Below, one piece after another: positions 1-8,056 of a stretch of DNA of 29,545 nt. The stretch is from a virus (taxonomy: Duplodnaviria; Caudoviricetes). Positions within the stretch are counted from its first letter, which is position 1. Each line of letters starts with the position of its first letter. The notes beneath the pieces are model-generated. The model did not search any database. It worked only from the letters and a program-made list of their open reading frames with translations, and was not told the origin of the DNA. The stretch lies in IMG/VR virus record IMGVR_UViG_3300032312_001032, positions 1-29,545 of that record; one strand, 5' to 3'. A program made the translations under genes and the position numbers.

Positions 1-15
1 AATACTTACTCTACT

Positions 16-507
16 ATGTGTGAGACTGAGTTTGAATTTAAGAGATTAATGTTTAATGGTCGGATTGCATTGAGGATGTGGACTGATATGGATAGTATTA
101 AAGAAGCATTTGCAACTCCTTTTGCTAAGAAAGAAGAATTAGATGCTTTAGCTAGCGAATATGAAATCCTTACTAAAGAGATTAGAGAGAAAGAATATCA
201 AGTAAAGAAGATTAAAAGAGAGGAATTTACTGAGATGCTTCATGGAGAAGGAATTGAGTGGAACCCAGGAAAGTATTTTGAATTTAATCGCCAATGGTCT
301 TCTTATCAAGTAAAGAAAGTGAAAATTGTTAAGACTACTAAATCCGGTAAGACTGCTGATTTGGAAGTTACTTATGGAACTTGGGATTATGTTTATGATG
401 ATGAGGGTAATGGTAAGAGAATAGAGAAAGAAGATAGAGTAGTAACTCACGAGAAGATTAAAATGGATTACGTGTTGGGTAATTTTAGAGACCAACTTTA
501 CAACTAA
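16..507 (+). CDS. hypothetical early phage protein, possibly 5'-truncated
   Basis: 163-aa ORF; the frame is open back to base 1, so the true start may lie outside the window; followed by a repeat and a terminator. Confidence 0.8.
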   Translation: MCETEFEFKRLMFNGRIALRMWTDMDSIKEAFATPFAKKEELDALASEYEILTKEIREKEYQVKKIKREEFTEMLHGEGIEWNPGKYFEFNRQWSSYQVKKVKIVKTTKSGKTADLEVTYGTWDYVYDDEGNGKRIEKEDRVVTHEKIKMDYVLGNFRDQLYN

Positions 508-531
508 GACCTTTTTTCTTTTTTCATATAG
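504..531 (+). repeat. 28-nt direct repeat, copy 1 (CTAAGACCTTTTTTCTTTTTTCATATAG)
   Basis: identical to 1629-1656; both copies overlap a stop codon and precede a terminator hairpin. Confidence 0.95.
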
Positions 532-536
532 TGATT

Positions 537-560
537 GGGAGCTTCGGCTCCCTTTCCTGT
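537..560 (+). terminator. intrinsic terminator
   Basis: GGGAGC-TTCG-GCTCCC followed by TTTCCTGT. Confidence 0.8.
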
Positions 561-592
561 TGAAGAGATAGTTTAAAAAAACTTACAAAGAG

Positions 593-623
593 TTGGATAA
601 TTACATTATTTTTCGTATATTAA
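593..623 (+). promoter_or_regulatory. Bacteroidota-type early promoter (TTG-N20-TATATTAA)
   Basis: TTG 593-595 and TA at 616, spacer 20; resembles the -33/-7 TTG...TAnnTTTG consensus. Confidence 0.75.
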
Positions 624-626
624 GGT

Positions 627-899
627 ATGGAAGAAACAATAAAGGTTATGACAAGAGACAGAATGATTATAGCACTCCGAGAGAAAGGAGTTGATGTTTG
701 TGGAACTACAAAAGACTTCGGTATTGGTGGAGATGGTATTTGGATTTCAGGTGAATCAACACCTAGCCTATTCAACTACTACTCTGAAGGATGGATGGAT
801 ACTTTTGGAGTCCAGCCTAAACTAAATGATTATGTAGAAGAGAATGGCTGGTACTTTGAATGGTATGATGCTGGAACAATGATGGTTTGGCCTAACTGA
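627..899 (+). CDS. hypothetical early protein (alternative start ATG 648)
   Basis: ORF behind a promoter; ATG 648 has the AAAGGTT leader shared with the starts at 985 and 2859. Confidence 0.85.
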   Translation: MEETIKVMTRDRMIIALREKGVDVCGTTKDFGIGGDGIWISGESTPSLFNYYSEGWMDTFGVQPKLNDYVEENGWYFEWYDAGTMMVWPN

Positions 900-920
900 G
901 AATTAGATTAAAAAAAGTTT

Positions 921-960
921 GGGGGAGGGTTGTTCCTTCCCCTTCTTGTTCGTATATTAA
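921..960 (+). promoter_or_regulatory. terminator-like hairpin fused with early promoter
   Basis: hairpin 921-942 with the TTG (930-932) in its loop; TATATTAA at 953, spacer 20. Confidence 0.75.
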
Positions 961-984
961 GGTATAATAAAAAGAAAAAAGGTT

Positions 985-1299
985 ATGACAAAGAACGAAT
1001 TAGAATCAGTAATTATGAATGCTTTGGATGAATTAGAAACAGCTATTCAAGATGCTAGAGCAGCTGCTATCAAGTACGGACAGGGTCAGGAGAATCTAGC
1101 TTTCGAAGTAGGCTTCTTAAGTTCAAGAATCAAAGCAGCTTTGTATCGATTAAATGAATCAGGCTTAATGTCTAACAATGCTCTCATCTCTGATGAAGGT
1201 CCTGAGTATGATTCAGCAGGGTTCAGTGAAGCTGATAGAATGCAGGAAGAAGAGCAGTATCATCATTGTGATGACTTAAGCTGCAATTGTTCAATCTAA
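985..1299 (+). CDS. hypothetical early protein with acidic C-terminus
   Basis: 104-aa ORF with AAAGGTT-ATG leader. Confidence 0.85.
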   Translation: MTKNELESVIMNALDELETAIQDARAAAIKYGQGQENLAFEVGFLSSRIKAALYRLNESGLMSNNALISDEGPEYDSAGFSEADRMQEEEQYHHCDDLSCNCSI

Positions 1300-1312
1300 A
1301 AAAATAATCAAT

Positions 1313-1350
1313 AGGAGGGTTGGTTCTTCCGACCCTTCTTCGTATATTAA
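1313..1350 (+). promoter_or_regulatory. hairpin fused with early promoter
   Basis: 11-bp hairpin 1313-1339; TTG 1320-1322 and TATATTAA at 1343, spacer 20. Confidence 0.75.
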
Positions 1351-1353
1351 GGT

Positions 1354-1527
1354 ATGAAGGTAAAAGAATTGATAGAAAGACTAACCCAATTGAACCCTGA
1401 AACAGAAGTAGAGTTTGTTGGATTATGTGAATATGGATTCGGAGAAACGATAGAGTTTATTTCAGAAGGATGTCATATCCAGGAAGAAGATAATCTAGTA
1501 CAGGTAATCATTCAAGGAGAAAATTAA
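1354..1527 (+). CDS. small acidic hypothetical protein, 57 aa (MKVKELIERL...), not in ORF track
   Basis: manual translation; ATG lies directly after the promoter. Confidence 0.8.
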   Translation: MKVKELIERLTQLNPETEVEFVGLCEYGFGETIEFISEGCHIQEEDNLVQVIIQGEN

Positions 1528-1530
1528 ACT

Positions 1531-1632
1531 ATGATAAAAAACATTATAAAAGAATCAATCATTGGAGGCTTATACCTCTTCGGAGCCTCTTCAATAGGTG
1601 CAGCAATCATTGTAGCCATCTATAACATCTAA
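1531..1632 (+). CDS. 33-aa hydrophobic, probably single-pass membrane peptide, not in ORF track
   Basis: MIKNIIKESIIGGLYLFGASSIGAAIIVAIYNI; starts 3 nt after the upstream stop and ends in the 28-nt repeat. Confidence 0.65.
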   Translation: MIKNIIKESIIGGLYLFGASSIGAAIIVAIYNI

Positions 1633-1656
1633 GACCTTTTTTCTTTTTTCATATAG
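1629..1656 (+). repeat. 28-nt direct repeat, copy 2
   Basis: identical to 504-531. Confidence 0.95.
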
Positions 1657-1658
1657 GA

Positions 1659-1686
1659 GGAGTCGGCTACGGTCGGCTCTTTCTGT
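1659..1686 (+). terminator. intrinsic terminator
   Basis: GGAGTCGGC-TACG-GTCGGCTCT (cUACGg tetraloop) followed by TTCTGT. Confidence 0.7.
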
Positions 1687-1903
1687 GTCTACGGTTTGCT
1701 CAAGACGGGCTACGGCCGACTAGACTACTGCTACGGTTCACTCACCTCACCTACTACGTACGTACTACCTACCTACATGTACGTCAATACAAACGTACTT
1801 AATATCACTATAGTAGTATCCTACGGTCTACCATCCTATACTTGCATGCATTTTTCCGAGCAAAATTACACCTATAAGGGTATATATTTATATATTATAT
1901 AAA
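1667..1903. repeat. phased CTACGG/CTAC repeats followed by an AT-rich tract
   Basis: CTACGG at 1667, 1689, 1710, 1731 and 1821; AT-only run at about 1881-1903. Confidence 0.6.
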
Positions 1904-1919
1904 GTAGTAGACTTCCCCA

Positions 1920-1927
1920 TATTTATA
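1920..1927 (+). promoter_or_regulatory. putative late promoter TATTTATA
   Basis: same octamer precedes genes at 5310, 5915, 8864, 10009, 12563, 15015, 17671, 24163 and 29018. Confidence 0.7.
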
Positions 1928-1934
1928 TAAGACT

Positions 1935-2771
1935 ATGAAAGATACTTTCGATTTTTCTTCTTACGTAAGATCCGGCCGTTTACATGAGGCAATCTTTAAT
2001 ATGCCTTTAAATCCTAGATTAGTATCGGCTTTAGAGCCTTTCTCTAATTCATATATGACTGTTGGTTCTTCCGATTGGGATCAGATGGTTGATATAGTCT
2101 CTAAAGTAACCGGTATGGAGGATAATGATCTTACCGATTTCTTGGGTGGTGATTATGGCGGGCCGGACTTATATGATTATGCAGAAGCACTTGATATCCG
2201 GATTGGGTATGAAGATGAATTTGCAGATGAGGAACCGCATCAAACCTCGGATACCTTCGCAGGCCCTAAAGGAATCGAAGAGATCGTAAAAGAAGTTCTT
2301 ACTAGAAGACTATCCGAGATTCAAATGGGATTTGAGTATAATCCTAAATCAGTTACAGGTGCCGGTAAGAAAAGAGGCCCTAAACCGATCGCCTTTCCTT
2401 ATTATGAGTTAAAGGAAAAATTTCCCGAACATTTCCGTCTTCAGACAAAGGATAAGGATTATACTATGTTAGTATCTAGGGATGTTATTGAGGCTATTGG
2501 ACAATTGAAAGATGCCGGTAGAAATGCTAGATCCAGACAGTTGACTAAGTTACAGGATGAATTAAGAAGTCTTGATACTCAAACCAGAAGAGTACTCATC
2601 AAAGGTACAGAAGGTCAGAAGACCTTCCCGGTAATGGGTAAGGAGATGTATATCTTGAATTGGCCGGTATTAGGTCCTAATAAGACCAAAGAGTTCTTAT
2701 GGTTAACTCCTACACAAATTGCCAACGAAGGTGCTGTCAATTTCCAAATTGACGAAAAGTATCTAGACTAA
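1935..2771 (+). CDS. hypothetical late protein, possible internal head protein
   Basis: 278 aa; acidic N-half and basic C-half; L-x-E sites (RLHE, RLSE); late motif upstream. Confidence 0.8.
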   Translation: MKDTFDFSSYVRSGRLHEAIFNMPLNPRLVSALEPFSNSYMTVGSSDWDQMVDIVSKVTGMEDNDLTDFLGGDYGGPDLYDYAEALDIRIGYEDEFADEEPHQTSDTFAGPKGIEEIVKEVLTRRLSEIQMGFEYNPKSVTGAGKKRGPKPIAFPYYELKEKFPEHFRLQTKDKDYTMLVSRDVIEAIGQLKDAGRNARSRQLTKLQDELRSLDTQTRRVLIKGTEGQKTFPVMGKEMYILNWPVLGPNKTKEFLWLTPTQIANEGAVNFQIDEKYLD

Positions 2772-2812
2772 GAGACCCCGGGGAATTTTTCCGGAAAATT
2801 TTTAGTATATAG

Positions 2813-2843
2813 TTGGATATATAAATATATCTTCGTATCTTTA
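2813..2843 (+). promoter_or_regulatory. early promoter (TTG-N20-TATCTTTA)
   Basis: TTG 2813-2815, TA 2836. Confidence 0.7.
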
Positions 2844-2858
2844 AGTACAATAAAGGTT

Positions 2859-3488
2859 ATGAGACGTAGACATATATCACTATTTGAATTGGCAGTACTT
2901 GAATCTCAAGGGTTCGTTACTATCTACTGTATGTTGAACCCAAGTACCGTACCTAACGTACCGGCAAAGATTCCTCAATACTATGATAACTTTCAGAAAT
3001 TACTTCAAAAGTATCCCCGGATTCCTTCTGAGAATATCTTGGATTTCATAGGGTGTGAGTATGCATCCGACATAGAGGTACGGTCTCAGGATGATAGTGG
3101 GGCTATCACTTGGATACTCTTGTATGCCAAAGATGAACTCAAGTTGGTAGACTTGGATTCTTCTTTAAGTAGAGGGAAGTATGTTTATGTGCTCACCAAT
3201 GATGCTTATCCTAACTTATGTAAGATAGGTAAGGCTATAAACCCTGAATCAAGAATCAACGGTATCAATTCGGCCGGTACCGTGTCCGAATGGGTCCTCC
3301 GATATGCTTTACCGGTCACTGATGATTACAAGGTTGAAAACCTTGTTCATAGACACTTTGCGGAGTTCCGCAGGGACTCTATTCAAGGTAGTTCGCGCGA
3401 GTTCTTTGAGGTTGACTTTGAGACTGCCGTCAAGGCAGTTGAATACTTCGGGAAGGATTTTTATGTCGGTGAACCAATTATTTATTAA
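2859..3488 (+). CDS. GIY-YIG superfamily T5orf172/MUG113-type domain protein
   Basis: YVYVL...KIGKA..PESR...VE...H..F...R....REFF in the C-terminal half. Confidence 0.8.
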   Translation: MRRRHISLFELAVLESQGFVTIYCMLNPSTVPNVPAKIPQYYDNFQKLLQKYPRIPSENILDFIGCEYASDIEVRSQDDSGAITWILLYAKDELKLVDLDSSLSRGKYVYVLTNDAYPNLCKIGKAINPESRINGINSAGTVSEWVLRYALPVTDDYKVENLVHRHFAEFRRDSIQGSSREFFEVDFETAVKAVEYFGKDFYVGEPIIY

Positions 3489-3491
3489 GAT

Positions 3492-3626
3492 ATGGAAAAG
3501 GAAAATAAGATAAACGGTCTGGAACGTCGTCACGTTGCTCAAATCGTCCGCAGGATGATGATTCAAAAGGTGAAGCCGTCGAAGAAAGTCTACGACAGAA
3601 AAAAATCTAAGAAAGACTTGCCTTAG
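3492..3626 (+). CDS. 44-aa basic protein, ArfA-like candidate, not in ORF track
   Basis: MEKENKINGLERRHVAQIVRRMMIQKVKPSKKVYDRKKSKKDLP; starts 3 nt after the upstream stop. Confidence 0.65.
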   Translation: MEKENKINGLERRHVAQIVRRMMIQKVKPSKKVYDRKKSKKDLP

Positions 3627-3650
3627 AACAACTAAGTTCATATATTTATA
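3618..3650 (+). promoter_or_regulatory. overlapping early (TTG-N20-TATATTTA) and late (TATTTATA) promoters of the tRNA cluster
   Basis: TTG 3618, TA 3641, TATTTATA 3643-3650. Confidence 0.7.
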
Positions 3651-3675
3651 TATATGCCTAGCAGGCGACCAAAAT

Positions 3676-3764
3676 GCTACTGTGGGGGAATAGGTAGACC
3701 CGCGGGACTTAAAATCCCGTTTGCCGTAAAGCAAGTGCCGGTTCGATCCCGGCTAGTAGTACCA
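3676..3764 (+). tRNA. trnL: tRNA-Leu(UAA) with encoded CCA
   Basis: cloverleaf, loop CTTAAAA, long variable arm, GTTCGAT, ends ACCA. Confidence 0.95.
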
Positions 3765-3790
3765 AAAAAATAAAAGAAAAACAAACTAAA

Positions 3791-3958
3791 ATGAAAAAAG
3801 CATTATTTATCGCCGCATTGGTTGCCTTGACTGCATGCTCAAGTGAAACCTCAACTTCTTCTTCAGATTCAACTTCTGTAGACACCTGCAACATTGATTC
3901 TTTGATTGATAGCGTAGATGCTCATGCAGACACTTTGACTGCTCTATTGAAGAAGTAA
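3791..3958 (+). CDS. 55-aa lipoprotein, not in ORF track
   Basis: MKKALFIAALVALTA|CSSETSTSSSDS...; signal peptide with LTAC lipobox. Confidence 0.85.
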   Translation: MKKALFIAALVALTACSSETSTSSSDSTSVDTCNIDSLIDSVDAHADTLTALLKK

Positions 3959-3965
3959 TCTTCAT

Positions 3966-4038
3966 GCCACCTTAGCTCAACTGGTAGAGCAACTGATTTG
4001 TACTCAGTAGGTTGTGGATTCGATTTCTACAGGTGGCT
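3966..4038 (+). tRNA. trnT: tRNA-Thr(UGU)
   Basis: GCCACCT/AGGTGGC acceptor, loop TTTGTAC. Confidence 0.93.
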
Positions 4039-4043
4039 CTAAA

Positions 4044-4055
4044 AAGTTCTTTGAC
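4044..4055 (+). promoter_or_regulatory. boxA-like antitermination element AAGTTCTTTGAC
   Basis: resembles rrn boxA (GYTCTTTRA); lies in a tRNA spacer upstream of an internal terminator. Confidence 0.55.
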
Positions 4056-4071
4056 GTACTGGAATAAAAAT

Positions 4072-4153
4072 GCCAAAGTGGTGAAATTGGTAGACACACT
4101 GGTCTTAGGAACCAGCGCTTTATCGCTTGCGAGTTCGAGTCTCGCCTTTGGTA
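4072..4153 (+). tRNA. trnL: tRNA-Leu(UAG)
   Basis: GCCAAAG/CTTTGGT acceptor, loop CTTAGGA, long variable arm. Confidence 0.93.
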
Positions 4154-4156
4154 CAA

Positions 4157-4252
4157 GGTGGTAATTAGACGAAAATGAAATTCCTGCTGTGATGTTAACT
4201 TAATCAGCATATTCAGAAGTAGAAATGAGTAATCGCAAATTACTCGCCACCA
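4157..4252 (+). ncRNA. candidate tRNA-mimic structured RNA, 96 nt
   Basis: GGTGGT/GCCACC+A closing stem stacked on GAGTAA-TCGCAAA-TTACTC; long internal stem 4180-4226. Confidence 0.55.
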
Positions 4253-4257
4253 TACAT

Positions 4258-4328
4258 GGCGGATTAGTGTAATGGTAACACATAAGGCTCATAACCTTAA
4301 ATTGGCAGTTCGAGTCTGTCGTCCGCAA
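4258..4328 (+). tRNA. trnM: tRNA-Met(CAU), initiator-like 1:72 mismatch
   Basis: loop CTCATAA; G1xA72 mismatch; only two G-C pairs at the base of the anticodon stem. Confidence 0.85.
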
Positions 4329-4336
4329 CTAAATGT

Positions 4337-4378
4337 ACCTATGAGCATACCATAAGAACTGCTTATAGGTCTTTTTTT
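4337..4378 (+). terminator. terminator-like hairpin inside the tRNA cluster
   Basis: ACCTATGAGCA/TGCTTATAGGT 11-bp stem followed by C and T7. Confidence 0.6.
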
Positions 4379-4465
4379 GGAAGATTGGCAGAGTGGCCGA
4401 TTGCGTTAGTCTTGAAAACTAAAGATGTTGAAAAGCATCCGTAGGTTCGAATCCTACATCTTCCG
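4379..4465 (+). tRNA. trnS: tRNA-Ser(UGA)
   Basis: GGAAGAT/ATCTTCC acceptor, loop CTTGAAA, long variable arm, G73. Confidence 0.95.
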
Positions 4466-4473
4466 CACCTTAA

Positions 4474-4571
4474 TACCAGTTCGGGTTCGTGAACAAAGGA
4501 GGCCTGTTCTTCTCGTGCAAGAAAGAAATCACGTTAAATCTCCTCACGCTAGGTGGAGTTGGTGACCTAGC
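4474..4571 (+). ncRNA. candidate multi-helix pseudoknotted RNA
   Basis: GC-rich spacer with six candidate helices, including the perfect GCTAGGT/ACCTAGC. Confidence 0.5.
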
Positions 4572-4576
4572 AACAT

Positions 4577-4647
4577 TACCCTCTCGTCTAACGGCAGGAC
4601 AACTGGTTTTGGTCCAGTTAATTGGAGTTCGAATCTCTGGGGGGTAA
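4577..4647 (+). tRNA. trnQ: tRNA-Gln(UUG)
   Basis: TACCCTC/GGGGGTA acceptor (U1-A72), loop TTTTGGT. Confidence 0.92.
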
Positions 4648-4666
4648 CGCCACTGAAGACAGTAAT

Positions 4667-4738
4667 GCTCGGTTCATCTATCGGTTAGGATGCCAGGTTT
4701 TCATCCTGGAAAGAGGGGTTCGATTTCCCTACCGAGTA
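4667..4738 (+). tRNA. trnE: tRNA-Glu(UUC)
   Basis: GCTCGGT/ACCGAGT acceptor, loop TTTTCAT. Confidence 0.92.
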
Positions 4739-4742
4739 CAAA

Positions 4743-5112
4743 TTAGAAGTTCTTGACTTTAAAAGAAAGGAACAAAATTATGAATGAAATTATTTTAGCT
4801 TATGGTTTGGGGATTTTAAGTATCGGTACTGGTGTTCTAGTACGGATGGTTCTCAAGGCAGAAAAAAAAGTTATCAGCTGTGAAGCAGCTATCACAAACC
4901 TAACTCAGCAGCATGAACGTAATTTGGAACAGGTTCATCGACGTATTGATGATCATGAACGGAATACAAATACTGAGATCGGCAATGTGTACCGTAACAT
5001 CGATTCTAGGATTGATAAACTAGAATTCAGAATGAAAGACCAGTTTAACTTCATTAAAAACAAAACTAGTCAGGCTTATTAAGTAAATGTTTAACCCGTC
5101 AGGAACTTCTAA
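4743..5112 (+). repeat. 15-bp long-range inverted repeat flanking an ORF
   Basis: TTAGAAGTTCTTGAC (4743-4757) pairs with GTCAGGAACTTCTAA (5098-5112) with one G-U. Confidence 0.85.
4780..5082 (+). CDS. membrane-anchored coiled-coil protein, 100 aa
   Basis: ATG 4780 preceded by AAAGGA; N-terminal hydrophobic helix then heptad-like pattern. Confidence 0.8.
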   Translation: MNEIILAYGLGILSIGTGVLVRMVLKAEKKVISCEAAITNLTQQHERNLEQVHRRIDDHERNTNTEIGNVYRNIDSRIDKLEFRMKDQFNFIKNKTSQAY

Positions 5113-5117
5113 CTTTT

Positions 5118-5191
5118 GGACCCTTAGCTCAGTTGGTTAGAGCAGCTCACTCATAATGAGAAGGTCACAGGTTCAAACCCTGTAGGGTCTA
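5118..5191 (+). tRNA. trnI: tRNA-Ile2(CAU), probably lysidine-modified
   Basis: GGACCCTTAGCTCAG...ACTCATAAT resembles ileX-type tRNAs; elongator Met is not excluded. Confidence 0.85.
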
Positions 5192-5216
5192 CCTTTTTTG
5201 ATCTTGTATTGAGTAT

Positions 5217-5288
5217 GGGTCTATAGTTAAAGGGATATAACAGAAGCCTTCTAAGCTTCTATTCCAGGTTCGAATCCTGGTAGACTCA
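5217..5288 (+). tRNA. trnR: tRNA-Arg(UCU)
   Basis: GAAGC/GCTTC stem with 7-nt loop CTTCTAA. Confidence 0.93.
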
Positions 5289-5338
5289 CTAGAAAATCGA
5301 AAGTACAACTATTTATAATAAATAAAATTACACTGTCG

Positions 5339-5788
5339 ATGAATTGTAAATATTGCGCTCAATACTACGAAGCTGGATACGGATCTTTCTGTTCTAGATC
5401 TTGCTGCAATAAAGCAAGAGGGCCTAGATCTCAAGAAGTAAGAGATAAAATCAAACAGAAAAATATTCAGAGAGCTTCTGAAAGAGGGAAGGATTTTTAT
5501 GAAAAGCTAAAAGAAGCTAATAGTAATCCGGAAAAACTTCTAAGAGTTAAAAATACTTGGCTTTCTAAACGAGATTATAATTCTGCTCATGTATTGACTT
5601 TAACTAAGTGGTTAAAAGAAGAAATTACAGAATGTCAAAACTGCGGATTGGATCAATGGTGTGGTTCCCGGTTACCTTTAGAAGTACATCATATAGACGG
5701 CAATAAGCAGAATAACATAAAAGAAAATTTACAGGTCTTATGTCCTAATTGTCATTCCTTAACCGGTAACTGGCGAGGACGTAAGTGA
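5339..5788 (+). CDS. free-standing HNH (homing) endonuclease
   Basis: N-terminal CxxC...FCSRSC zinc finger; C-terminal CxxC...LEVHHIDGNKQNN...NLQVLCPNCH. Confidence 0.92.
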   Translation: MNCKYCAQYYEAGYGSFCSRSCCNKARGPRSQEVRDKIKQKNIQRASERGKDFYEKLKEANSNPEKLLRVKNTWLSKRDYNSAHVLTLTKWLKEEITECQNCGLDQWCGSRLPLEVHHIDGNKQNNIKENLQVLCPNCHSLTGNWRGRK

Positions 5789-5800
5789 TTACCGTATCTT

Positions 5801-5851
5801 GATCCTGGGAAGGTCTCCTAGACGGTACAGGTTCGAATCCTGTCAGGATCA
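5801..5851 (+). ncRNA. 51-nt truncated tRNA-like element (acceptor stem + T arm, no D arm)
   Basis: GATCCTG/CAGGATC+A and ACAGG-TTCGAAT-CCTGT joined by only 19 nt. Confidence 0.7.
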
Positions 5852-5873
5852 CCGCAGTGAGATGCTTACCGTT

Positions 5874-5909
5874 AAAGGATCTATCATTAAGTTGGTAGGT
5901 CCTTTTTTT
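5874..5909 (+). terminator. intrinsic terminator ending the tRNA cluster
   Basis: AAAGGATCTATCA/TGGTAGGTCCTTT followed by a T-run. Confidence 0.85.
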
Positions 5910-5926
5910 ATGTCTATTTATAAAAT

Positions 5927-8056
5927 ATGGCGTATATTACAGGGTCTGTTATTGATAGTTTTGGTGTACTTCCATTTTCCTTATCGGCAGGTACTCAGCT
6001 ATCTATGAGTATTCAAAACTCACTACCCGGGGTTTCTTACTACGGTTTAGAGACTGTACCGGACGGAAATGGCTTTTATAATCCCACTACTCCTAGGAAT
6101 TTATCCGGGTCTTTTATTCTCGGTTCCGGTATAGTTGATGTTGTTTATGATGACTATAAAATGGTTGCTGCAGTTGCTCCAGGAGGAGGTACTTTAACCT
6201 ACACTCCGGCAGTTGCTATTATGGCAGATACTCTACGTACTAAGGGCACTGGTGCTTCTTTAGGACCGGTGGATTTTGGTACTTTATTAGCTAGTTCTTA
6301 TTCGAAAAGGGTAACTGCAGCAGGAGGGTATGTTGAATCACCAGATAGTATTACAGCAGCTATCGCTGCTACTCCTATATTACAGGATGCTTCATTCTTA
6401 TATGTTCCTTCAGGGTATGCTTCAGGGACTGCTTTTTCTGAATTATCAACTAAGGACTATGTTGATTTAACTTGGACAAGGGCGACTGATGCTTGGCGTA
6501 CAAATGCCGATGAGTTGATTCAACGAGTTCCGTGGAATTTGTTGCAACAAAGTGAAACTTTTGACAATGAAATTTGGGTTAAAACTTCCACCACAATTGT
6601 GGCAAATGCTGAAATAGCACCAAACGCAACAATGACTGCGGACATAATGACCGTAACCTCTTCTGCCACAAACTTATCTCAAACGGTATCTTATCCCATT
6701 TATGGTGGTGGTGAATATACTTTTAGTGTTTATGTAAAAGTAATAAGCACAACAACATCGGGGGCAATGAGATTGCAAGGGGTTGTAGATGGTGCGAATG
6801 TGTCAATGAATTTTACACCTACAACAGAATGGCAATTATTTACCCAAACTATTAACGCTACAACATCAATAACTTCATTGAGAATTAGGGGGCTAGCGTT
6901 TGTTGGAACAGTTGCTATTTGGGGAGCACAATTAACCGAAGGCACAACTGCTCAACCTTATCTTCCAACAACAACAAGATTAAATGTACCTCGTTTAGAT
7001 TACACTTACGGAACTAGTCCTGCTTCTTTGTTAGAACCGGAGAGGACGAATCAGATTCCGAATAGTATTTGTAGTGGTTCAATTACGGGAACACCTGGAA
7101 CTTATCCAGCTCACTGGTCTGCAACAAGTACGGGATTAACTCAATCAGTTGTTGCTATTGGAACTGAAAATGGTTTGGCTTATGTAGATTTGAGATTTAA
7201 CGGAACGGCAAACACAACACTTGCACGAATAACTTTCGAAGGGCCTACCGTAATTCCGGTAACAAATAACTACCCGCGGGTAGTGTCAACCTATGCAAAA
7301 TTGATAAGTGGAAGTTACGATTCATCTGCATTGGGGTTCATTATGCGTAGCATCGATGGTTCAGATCTTGGGTTACTATCTCAAACAATTACACTAAATT
7401 CAACTTTTCAAAGGTTTAGTTATTCCGCAACAACAAACGTACCGTTGACTAATTATGCCCAACCATGTATTGATTTCTATGTGACAAGTGGGCAAACATA
7501 CGATTTTACCATCCGCATCGCTCAACCACAATTTGAATCGGGCGCTTACTCAACTACGCCAATTTTAACCGATGGATCATTCTTTGTGACCCGTATTGCG
7601 GATTCATTCTCTCGCAATAACATCTACACGAATGGTTTGATAACATCAAGCGGAGGAACTTGGTTTGTTAAGTTGTTGAATAATGTGGCGTATGTTGGAG
7701 ATTTGGGTAATGATGCAATACTTTTGGGAGATACAAACAACCTAACCGGAAATAATTTTAGGTTATTGCATGGGGAATCATCAGGTCGAATGAGAATTTT
7801 TAAAACTATTTCAGGAAGTCTAACATCACTATACACAACTACGACAGACACAACCAAAATCGCTATTAAGTGGAACGGAAGCACCGCAGACATTTTTGCT
7901 AATGGAACAAAGGTTGTTTCTGCCACCGCATTTACTGCAACTGCTTTGGAATTTTTTCGTACAAACATAACGGCAGCCCCCAAATTCATCTCACAAATGG
8001 CATTATTTCCCACACCCTTAACAGATGCGGAGTGCATCGCCTTAACAACTTTATAA
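5927..8056 (+). CDS. virion fibre/spike protein with tandem carbohydrate-binding-like beta-sandwich and LamG-like domains
   Basis: 709 aa, Thr/Ser/Gly-rich; two NxxxxS...AQ(L/PQF)xxG...PxL modules; late motif at 5915. Confidence 0.7.
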   Translation: MAYITGSVIDSFGVLPFSLSAGTQLSMSIQNSLPGVSYYGLETVPDGNGFYNPTTPRNLSGSFILGSGIVDVVYDDYKMVAAVAPGGGTLTYTPAVAIMADTLRTKGTGASLGPVDFGTLLASSYSKRVTAAGGYVESPDSITAAIAATPILQDASFLYVPSGYASGTAFSELSTKDYVDLTWTRATDAWRTNADELIQRVPWNLLQQSETFDNEIWVKTSTTIVANAEIAPNATMTADIMTVTSSATNLSQTVSYPIYGGGEYTFSVYVKVISTTTSGAMRLQGVVDGANVSMNFTPTTEWQLFTQTINATTSITSLRIRGLAFVGTVAIWGAQLTEGTTAQPYLPTTTRLNVPRLDYTYGTSPASLLEPERTNQIPNSICSGSITGTPGTYPAHWSATSTGLTQSVVAIGTENGLAYVDLRFNGTANTTLARITFEGPTVIPVTNNYPRVVSTYAKLISGSYDSSALGFIMRSIDGSDLGLLSQTITLNSTFQRFSYSATTNVPLTNYAQPCIDFYVTSGQTYDFTIRIAQPQFESGAYSTTPILTDGSFFVTRIADSFSRNNIYTNGLITSSGGTWFVKLLNNVAYVGDLGNDAILLGDTNNLTGNNFRLLHGESSGRMRIFKTISGSLTSLYTTTTDTTKIAIKWNGSTADIFANGTKVVSATAFTATALEFFRTNITAAPKFISQMALFPTPLTDAECIALTTL

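What the first reader, a model, noticed from the sequence alone, without database searches (positions are those of the whole stretch)
504..1656. Repeated 3'-UTR element perfectly antisense to an early-gene leader
Seen: an identical 28-mer lies between stop codon and terminator of two unrelated units (504-531, 1629-1656). Its core ACCTTTTTTCTTTTT is the exact 15-nt complement of AAAAAGAAAAAAGGT (969-983), the leader just upstream of ATG 985, and a G-U pair at 984 extends it. Shorter AAAGGTT leaders precede ATG 648 and 2859. The same element contains CTTTTTTCAT, complementary to ATGAAAAAAG, the start of the lipoprotein gene at 3791. Inference: either 5'/3'-UTR pairing that closes or processes early mRNAs, or 3'-UTR-derived antisense RNAs that silence initiation regions, possibly including host MKK-starting genes.
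Basis: partly seen in the sequence, partly recalled or inferred. Interest (0 to 1): 0.8.

Follow-up and report, generated by a model that had tools for sequence, protein, structure and literature searches.

The report
Phage anti-leader RNA closes early transcripts
This freshwater phage and its relatives, including a cultured Flavobacterium phage, keep a mirror-image copy of their early-gene leader just before a predicted terminator and change it whenever the leader changes, so it likely pairs with early messenger RNAs and would damp their translation, a step still untested.

Summary
In detail: two identical 28-mers (504-531, 1629-1656) include the stop codon, stand unpaired before a predicted terminator and carry the exact 15-nt complement of the leader at 969-983 (0 of 300 resampled windows reach 15 nt). 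The window is the early region of an Immutovirus-like Bacteroidota phage. The first copy ends a ~260-aa gene cut by the contig start. In 40 intact orthologous loci that gene's own leader pairs with its own tail, and leader and tail change together. In the cultured phage vB_FspM_immuto (homologue, 28% identity) the shared early leader is a different sequence and the tail is its complement again; a third leader/tail pair exists. The complement covers the leader, never the promoter. The module (anti-leader plus terminator) is portable: it also follows genes whose own leader does not match, and tRNA-like RNAs. Best reading: an RNA arm that pairs with the phage's shared early leader, in cis and likely in trans, and damps early translation (0.6). 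The proposed MKK/host-gene target is chance-level. No transcript data were found, and a strand-bias test was inconclusive. New variant of icaR-type or 3'UTR-sRNA control, testable in a cultured phage.

The parts
16..507 (+). 3' part (163 codons) of a ~260-aa early gene of unknown function, cut by the contig start; carrier of copy 1
   Evidence: homologue of immuto26A_136; no Pfam match for the full-length orthologue, no PHROG match for this part, no PDB fold match
504..531 (+). Copy 1 (E1): stop codon plus anti-leader arm (core 509-523)
   Evidence: core predicted unpaired on its own
533..560 (+). Predicted intrinsic terminator behind E1 (core stem 537-552, UUCG loop)
   Evidence: z -4.0
612..647 (+). 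Early promoter-like box and leader of the gene starting at 648 (or 627); predicted partner of E2 (-16.0)
921..987 (+). Hairpin, early promoter-like box (949-961) and leader 964-984 with ATG 985; exact 15-nt complement of both copies at 969-983
1314..1356 (+). Hairpin and early promoter-like box of a leaderless gene (ATG 1354)
1531..1632 (+). 33-aa hydrophobic ORF, carrier of copy 2; its own upstream sequence is not complementary
1629..1656 (+). Copy 2 (E2): stop codon plus anti-leader arm (core 1634-1648)
1651..1688 (+). Predicted terminator hairpin behind E2, ending the early block
   Evidence: z -4.4; conserved anchor in relatives

Best explanation
Each copy is the complement of the phage's shared early-gene leader placed just before a predicted terminator, and it likely pairs as RNA with those leaders and would damp early translation once full-length transcripts build up. 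Steps: (1) host-type promoter boxes head most early genes and give short A-rich leaders without a Shine-Dalgarno sequence (sequence shown; +1 inferred); (2) transcripts that reach a terminator carry the anti-leader at their 3' end (inferred); (3) it folds back on the 5' leader of the same or a read-through transcript (predicted) and, as whole mRNA or a released 3' fragment, can also reach other early mRNAs (inferred); (4) the paired leader no longer loads ribosomes well and may be cleaved as double-stranded RNA (inferred by analogy with icaR).
For: Position kept: all 48 of 48 family loci with a visible stop start with the ACC(TTT) arm (54 rows, 6 cut before the stop, 3 cut inside the arm). Specific: among 470 promoter-proximal genes, 26 have own-leader/own-tail duplexes of -12 or stronger; 21 are this family, 1 an internal start of it, 2 the 164-aa gene in front of E2, 2 short ORFs. 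Covariation within the clade: A-type leader with U-type arm, U-type leader with A-type arm; 20 unique pairs, mean -15.1 against -13.4 permuted, 0 of 5000. Whole-motif change: immuto26A_136 (hhalign P 97.8, E 7.8e-13) has a different leader and a 14-nt exact complement at its stop, the only such case among 30 genes examined; 16 of 23 immuto-clade loci with a located start show it; cross-clade swaps give -2.9 and -5.8. A third pair in L152/L154. Complement limited to the leader (median 12 nt exact) and absent for the promoter core (median 4, maximum 6) in 35 contexts. Whole-mRNA folds close the stem with probability near 1 in 7 of 9 orthologues, both window read-through transcripts and two distant loci. 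Portability: of 7 loci lacking it behind the gene, L155 has it behind a gene whose leader does not match (-5.3) while 10 other leaders reach -14 or stronger, and 4 of 5 records searched hold one copy elsewhere on the coding strand, two directly behind Rfam tRNA matches. Long-range anti-RBS pairing lowers expression in vivo in B. subtilis (PMC12697547, abstract and discussion); structure at the start region lowers initiation in Flavobacterium (PMC6847099, passages).
Against: No transcript, end map or reporter. Sense against antisense strand energies 11 to 9 and isolated G-U against A-C mismatches 6 to 4 do not show that RNA rather than DNA is selected. Loci are related, and leader types are interleaved on a quick protein tree, so the within-clade switch may be one to three events carried on shared flanks. 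Weak own pairing in L013, L014, L015, L092 (-10) and L099 (-11.6). In the immuto clade the arm covers only the first ~15 nt and leaves 11 nt before AUG free, so direct start-codon masking is not universal. E2 is absent in 4 distant loci that keep its terminator, and E2 has no good partner between the two terminators in L101. The direction of the effect (down or up) is not shown. A/U-rich duplexes are weak against ribosome traffic.
Confidence: 0.6

Rival explanations
1. Purely cis and positive: the stem closes the mRNA end to end, shields the 5' end from nucleases, or hands terminating ribosomes back to the start codon, which sits directly opposite the stop codon in this clade.
For: Own leader best in 20 of 29 loci (5.5 expected) and better than the next gene's leader in 22 of 24; the match begins at the inferred +1 in immuto (offset 3); a 14-bp 5'/3' helix modulates RNase Y cleavage of hbs mRNA (PMC5737220, abstract).
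Against: Copies behind tRNA-like RNAs or non-matching genes; in immuto other leaders pair better than the own one and stop and start are not juxtaposed.
Confidence: 0.17
2. DNA-level site: the leader motif is an operator for a phage protein and the inverted copy is a further binding site, for example a roadblock or loop anchor at the terminator.
For: Strand-bias tests inconclusive; leader motif repeated at many early promoters.
Against: Always inverted and always just before a terminator; tolerated changes inside the core include G-U-compatible ones in L085, L119/L120, L148, L153/L158/L161; no protein known to bind it.
Confidence: 0.1
3. Functionless inverted copy kept alike by gene conversion or template switching between repeats.
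For: E1 and E2 are identical in the window, L091 and L101, and share a few codons before the stop, so exchange between copies is plausible.
Against: The complement stops at the leader and never includes the better conserved promoter core; position kept across 28% protein identity and three leader types.
Confidence: 0.07
4. Antisense RNA against host or phage genes that start with Met-Lys-Lys.
For: 10-nt complement to the start at 3791.
Against: Chance-level (277 of 300 resamples); the CAT is changed to GAT in L013, L094, L099, L103, L105, L106 and the immuto arm has no such part. The host is unknown, so host genes were not tested.
Confidence: 0.03

Closest known systems
icaR mRNA 5'-3' UTR pairing, Staphylococcus aureus (PMC3868564; abstract and one discussion section read)
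   Same: A 3'UTR motif pairs with the initiation region of the same mRNA; reported to block initiation and give an RNase III substrate.
   Different: Here a lytic phage, no Shine-Dalgarno target, arm directly at the stop codon, complementary to a leader shared by many genes, one or two copies found per record, portable; no experiment.
hbs mRNA 5'/3' UTR helix, Bacillus subtilis (PMC5737220; abstract)
   Same: About 14-bp long-range helix between the two UTRs.
   Different: Single gene, modulates RNase Y cleavage; no shared leader set.
3'UTR-derived base-pairing sRNAs and tRNA-trailer RNAs (class recalled; CisR, PMC13250501, seen in a search listing only)
   Same: Unpaired seed in front of an intrinsic terminator shared with an upstream RNA; several possible targets.
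   Different: No separate transcript shown; targets would be the phage's own early leaders. The passages returned from a 2025 review of phage sRNAs (PMC12197685) show no such case: no occurrence of 'leader', 'Flavobacter' or 'Bacteroid'.
T4 RegB/RegA early-mRNA shut-off and hok fbi fold-back (recalled; hok is mentioned in PMC3868564)
   Same: Possible purpose: limit translation of early or toxic mRNAs in time.
   Different: RegB and RegA are proteins; hok fold-back belongs to a toxin-antitoxin locus, and the 33-aa ORF's own leader does not pair here.

Membership tests
icaR-type 5'-3' UTR pairing | 3'UTR motif complementary to the initiation region of the same mRNA | tested here: met
   E1 in 40 of 40 intact loci at -10 or stronger; predicted only. 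Not met for the 33-aa carrier of E2.
icaR-type 5'-3' UTR pairing | Target is the Shine-Dalgarno sequence | tested here: not met
   Leaders are A-rich and end AAAGGTT two bases before ATG, or carry the immuto motif; Bacteroidetes lack SD sequences (PMC6847099).
icaR-type 5'-3' UTR pairing | Pairing supported by compensatory change | tested here: met
   Natural covariation within and between clades; number of independent events small.
icaR-type 5'-3' UTR pairing | Blocks initiation complex and creates an RNase III substrate | not testable with these tools
   Needs toeprint and cleavage assays.
3'UTR-derived sRNA | Unpaired seed followed by an intrinsic terminator | tested here: met
   (prediction).
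3'UTR-derived sRNA | Exists as a separate short transcript | not testable with these tools
   Needs infection RNA data; tRNA-like RNAs in front of some copies would give a release route (inference).
3'UTR-derived sRNA | Acts in trans on several mRNAs | tested here: inconclusive
   8-16 of 23-28 leaders per locus pair at -12 or stronger in four distant loci, but read-through cis pairing is not excluded.
Type I toxin-antitoxin fold-back (hok-like) | 3' element pairs with the 5' end of the small hydrophobic toxin's own mRNA | tested here: not met
   Where the 33-aa ORF has its own promoter (L001) the duplex is -4.2, and E2 stays when the ORF is replaced by a 164-aa gene.
Rfam RNA families | Match to a covariance model | tested here: not met
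   No match over 1-3600 in a scan of 1-6000; hits are in the tRNA cluster.

The most novel reading that the evidence does not exclude
Immutovirus-like phages tag their early mRNAs with a shared 5' leader and encode a portable anti-leader RNA, released from an mRNA tail or a tRNA-like scaffold, that switches off the whole early gene set by base pairing: an all-RNA early shut-off for hosts without Shine-Dalgarno sequences.
Probability: 0.35. Interest if true: 0.9.

Novelty: new variant of a known kind. Interest (0 to 1): 0.74.

Why it matters
How large lytic Bacteroidota phages turn down their many strong early promoters is not explained by the papers found here. A complement of the shared leader that is rewritten whenever the leader changes points to an RNA-only control, and few long-range 5'-3' mRNA pairings are reported in bacteria (PMC12697547, discussion). 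The same arrangement sits in a cultured phage with a cultured host (vB_FspM_immuto, Flavobacterium sp. LMO8; gene 136, MW353175.1 71308-72096), so the question is directly testable. It could also give a simple tool for damping expression in Bacteroidota.

Tried and rejected
Chance: rejected. Minus-strand micro-ORF or gene start in the arm: the ATG is not conserved (CAT to GAT). Read-through peptide after the stop: arm length varies out of frame. Pairing with the next gene's leader as main partner: own is stronger in 22 of 24. MKK targets: chance-level. Strand-bias tests: inconclusive. A gapped local-alignment test of the promoter boundary was too permissive and was replaced by an exact-match test. 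Expression: no RNA holder listed, which is no evidence either way. Carrier protein: confident model (pLDDT 91.6), only uncharacterised phage matches, no PDB match at E 0.001, unnamed Atlas clusters; function unknown. No direct tblastn match of the 260-aa protein among GenBank phages; none of the family in genome contigs. One pattern search was mis-specified and told nothing. The shorter-pattern hits L006-L009 are an unrelated terminator arm and were left out of counts. The careful protein tree did not finish; the quick tree was used. Literature searches with no hit; others listed only bacterial or temperate-phage cases. The library lacks most subscription journals and no supplements were read, so absence from print is not established.

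Full report
Setting. The 29.5-kb record is a whole contig with a tRNA cluster, baseplate-like and replication genes. Its baseplate protein is closest to Flavobacterium phage vB_FspM_immuto (48% over the full length), and the gene order after the early block matches that phage. Positions 1-1700 are the end of an early block: short genes, each behind a repeated box TTCGTATATTAAG (612, 949, 1339) that resembles the Bacteroidetes -7 element TANNTTTG (PMC6847099, passages). Of 148 boxes in all fetched loci with an ATG within 12 nt, 110 have it 3-4 bases after the box, which places the inferred +1 there.

Observation. Confirmed with corrections. Each 28-mer holds the stop codon, then a pyrimidine arm predicted to be unpaired, then a stable hairpin. 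The 15-nt complement at 969-983 is beyond chance (0 of 300), the 10-nt match at 3791 is not (277 of 300).

The carrier of copy 1. In a relative the gene is complete (260 aa) and its own leader is identical to window 961-984, so leader and arm flank the same gene and the stem would set AUG opposite the stop codon. A metagenome and three viral scans gave orthologues from 100% to 30% identity. Of 54 rows, 6 end before the stop; the other 48 all begin their tail with the arm, 3 of them cut short. Forty loci with both ends intact reduce to 20 leader/arm pairs. Leaders ending AAAAAAGGTT go with GACCTTTTTT and leaders ending AAATAAAGGTT go with AACCTTTATTT; mean own duplex -15.1 kcal/mol against -13.4 for permuted pairs (0 of 5000). 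This does not count events: types are interleaved on a quick tree, and near-identical proteins occur with either flank set, so the coding part may move between a few flank backgrounds. L096, L098 and L112 carry the second type within the promoter and terminator background of the first. Exceptions: L013, L014, L015, L092 and L099 pair weakly with their own leader. Among 470 promoter-proximal genes in the loci then held, strong own-leader/own-tail pairing is almost confined to this family, although dozens of genes share the leader. Own leader ranks first in 20 of 29 loci with three or more leaders (5.5 expected; loci not independent). Equilibrium folds of the whole mRNA close the stem with probability near 1 in 7 of 9 cases, about 0.6 in L096 and 0.2-0.4 in L013; without an arm the window leaders are mostly open.

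Copy 2. It stays in front of the terminator that ends the early block while the gene before it changes (33, 32 or 164 aa). With the 164-aa gene the own leader pairs at -18.1 and -16.4 in L105, L014 and L116 but only -9.3 in L099 and L109. With the 33-aa ORF the partner must be an upstream leader: in the window, transcripts from the boxes at 612 and 949 are both predicted to close on E2. In L101 no leader between the two terminators fits, and four distant loci keep the terminator without the arm.

The decisive comparison. The immuto early block has a 262-aa gene (immuto26A_136) homologous to the carrier (P 97.8, E 7.8e-13, 28% identity). Its early genes share a different leader, GTATCAATAATTAAAA, and directly at the stop of gene 136 lies TTTTAATTATTGAT, its exact complement, followed by a terminator-like hairpin; 1 of 30 genes examined shows this (-12.1, next -8.0). 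Of 26 related loci, 23 had a located start: 16 carry the arm and 7 do not; the other 3 show an arm by inspection. Leaders and tails of the two clades do not cross-pair (-2.9, -5.8, tails without arm included). L152 and L154 show a third leader/arm pair that also covers the start codon. In 35 distinct contexts the longest exact complement is 12 nt (median) for the leader and 4 (maximum 6) for the promoter core, so the match follows the transcript rather than the DNA repeat.

Portability. Of the 7 loci without an arm behind the gene, L155 has one 4.5 kb on, behind a gene whose own leader does not fit (-5.3) while ten other leaders reach -14 or stronger. Five further records were searched (L151 was not): 4 hold exactly one match, on the coding strand, including one complete 168-kb genome; the blank is 26% complete. 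Two of these lie 14-20 nt behind Rfam tRNA matches above the gathering score, one behind a tRNA-like stretch seen by eye only, one behind a gene; ARAGORN calls none of them. L152 and L154 have two copies, as the window does. There 8-16 of 23-28 neighbouring leaders pair at -12 or stronger, and in immuto several leaders pair as well as or better than the own one. The unit is therefore anti-leader plus terminator, aimed at the shared leader, with tuning to the own leader in the window's clade.

Mechanism. Shown: sequence, position, conservation, covariation, boundary. Predicted: duplexes, terminators. Inferred: +1, read-through, release of a short RNA, repression. Repression is preferred because pairing over the initiation region lowers expression in icaR (PMC3868564, abstract and section 14) and at long range in B. 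subtilis (PMC12697547, abstract and discussion), and structure near the start lowers initiation in Flavobacterium (PMC6847099). Against certainty: no RNA data, inconclusive strand tests (11 to 9; 6 to 4), and the immuto arm leaves the 11 nt before AUG free.

Known and new. It works like icaR-type pairing and like a 3'UTR-derived sRNA but fails the Shine-Dalgarno feature of the first and lacks transcript proof for the second. Searches and passages of a phage-sRNA review showed no description in lytic Bacteroidota phages; the library is incomplete. Earlier notes of this scan report similar arms in other phages; they are unchecked here and are not evidence, but they suggest a wider class. T4 RegB/RegA and the names of sRNA classes are recalled, not from calls. 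Verdict: real, conserved, likely regulatory; new variant of a known kind; interest 0.74.

Noticed in passing
window 1667-1826; L005 4160-4232 and 7566-7725: Arrays of CTACGG behind terminator 2 and of its complement CCGTAG behind terminator 1 in relatives; possible protein-binding repeats at the edge of the early block.
   Followed up: no
L005 ~374, L013 ~4337 and ~5855, L014 ~4947 and ~6465 (minus strand): A leftward early promoter followed by a conserved G/C-rich stretch at the start of the early block; candidate non-coding RNA.
   Followed up: no
L162 1534-1610, L164 1335-1480, L163 2217-2301; similar by eye in L165, L152, L154: tRNA-like RNAs with acceptor, D and T arms but an odd or greatly enlarged anticodon arm, several directly in front of the anti-leader module.
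   Followed up: partly
window 921-961 and 1314-1351: Early promoters overlap a G/C hairpin with a T tail that could also end the upstream transcript; a repeated compact terminator-promoter unit throughout relatives.
   Followed up: partly
window 627, 1354; many relatives: Many early genes start 3-4 bases after the promoter box and would be leaderless; 627 and 648 are in-frame alternative starts.
   Followed up: partly
window 16-507 family: Large family (97 and 594 hits from two queries), confidently folded, with no named relative; it is the longest gene of the early block stretches seen.
   Followed up: partly
L005 4935-6360: A run of early genes with very few C on the coding strand (almost only A, G, T), unlike their neighbours.
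   Followed up: no
window 5801-5851: Weak partial tRNA match (26.3 bits, below the gathering score) after the HNH gene at 5339-5788; possible broken tRNA.
   Followed up: no
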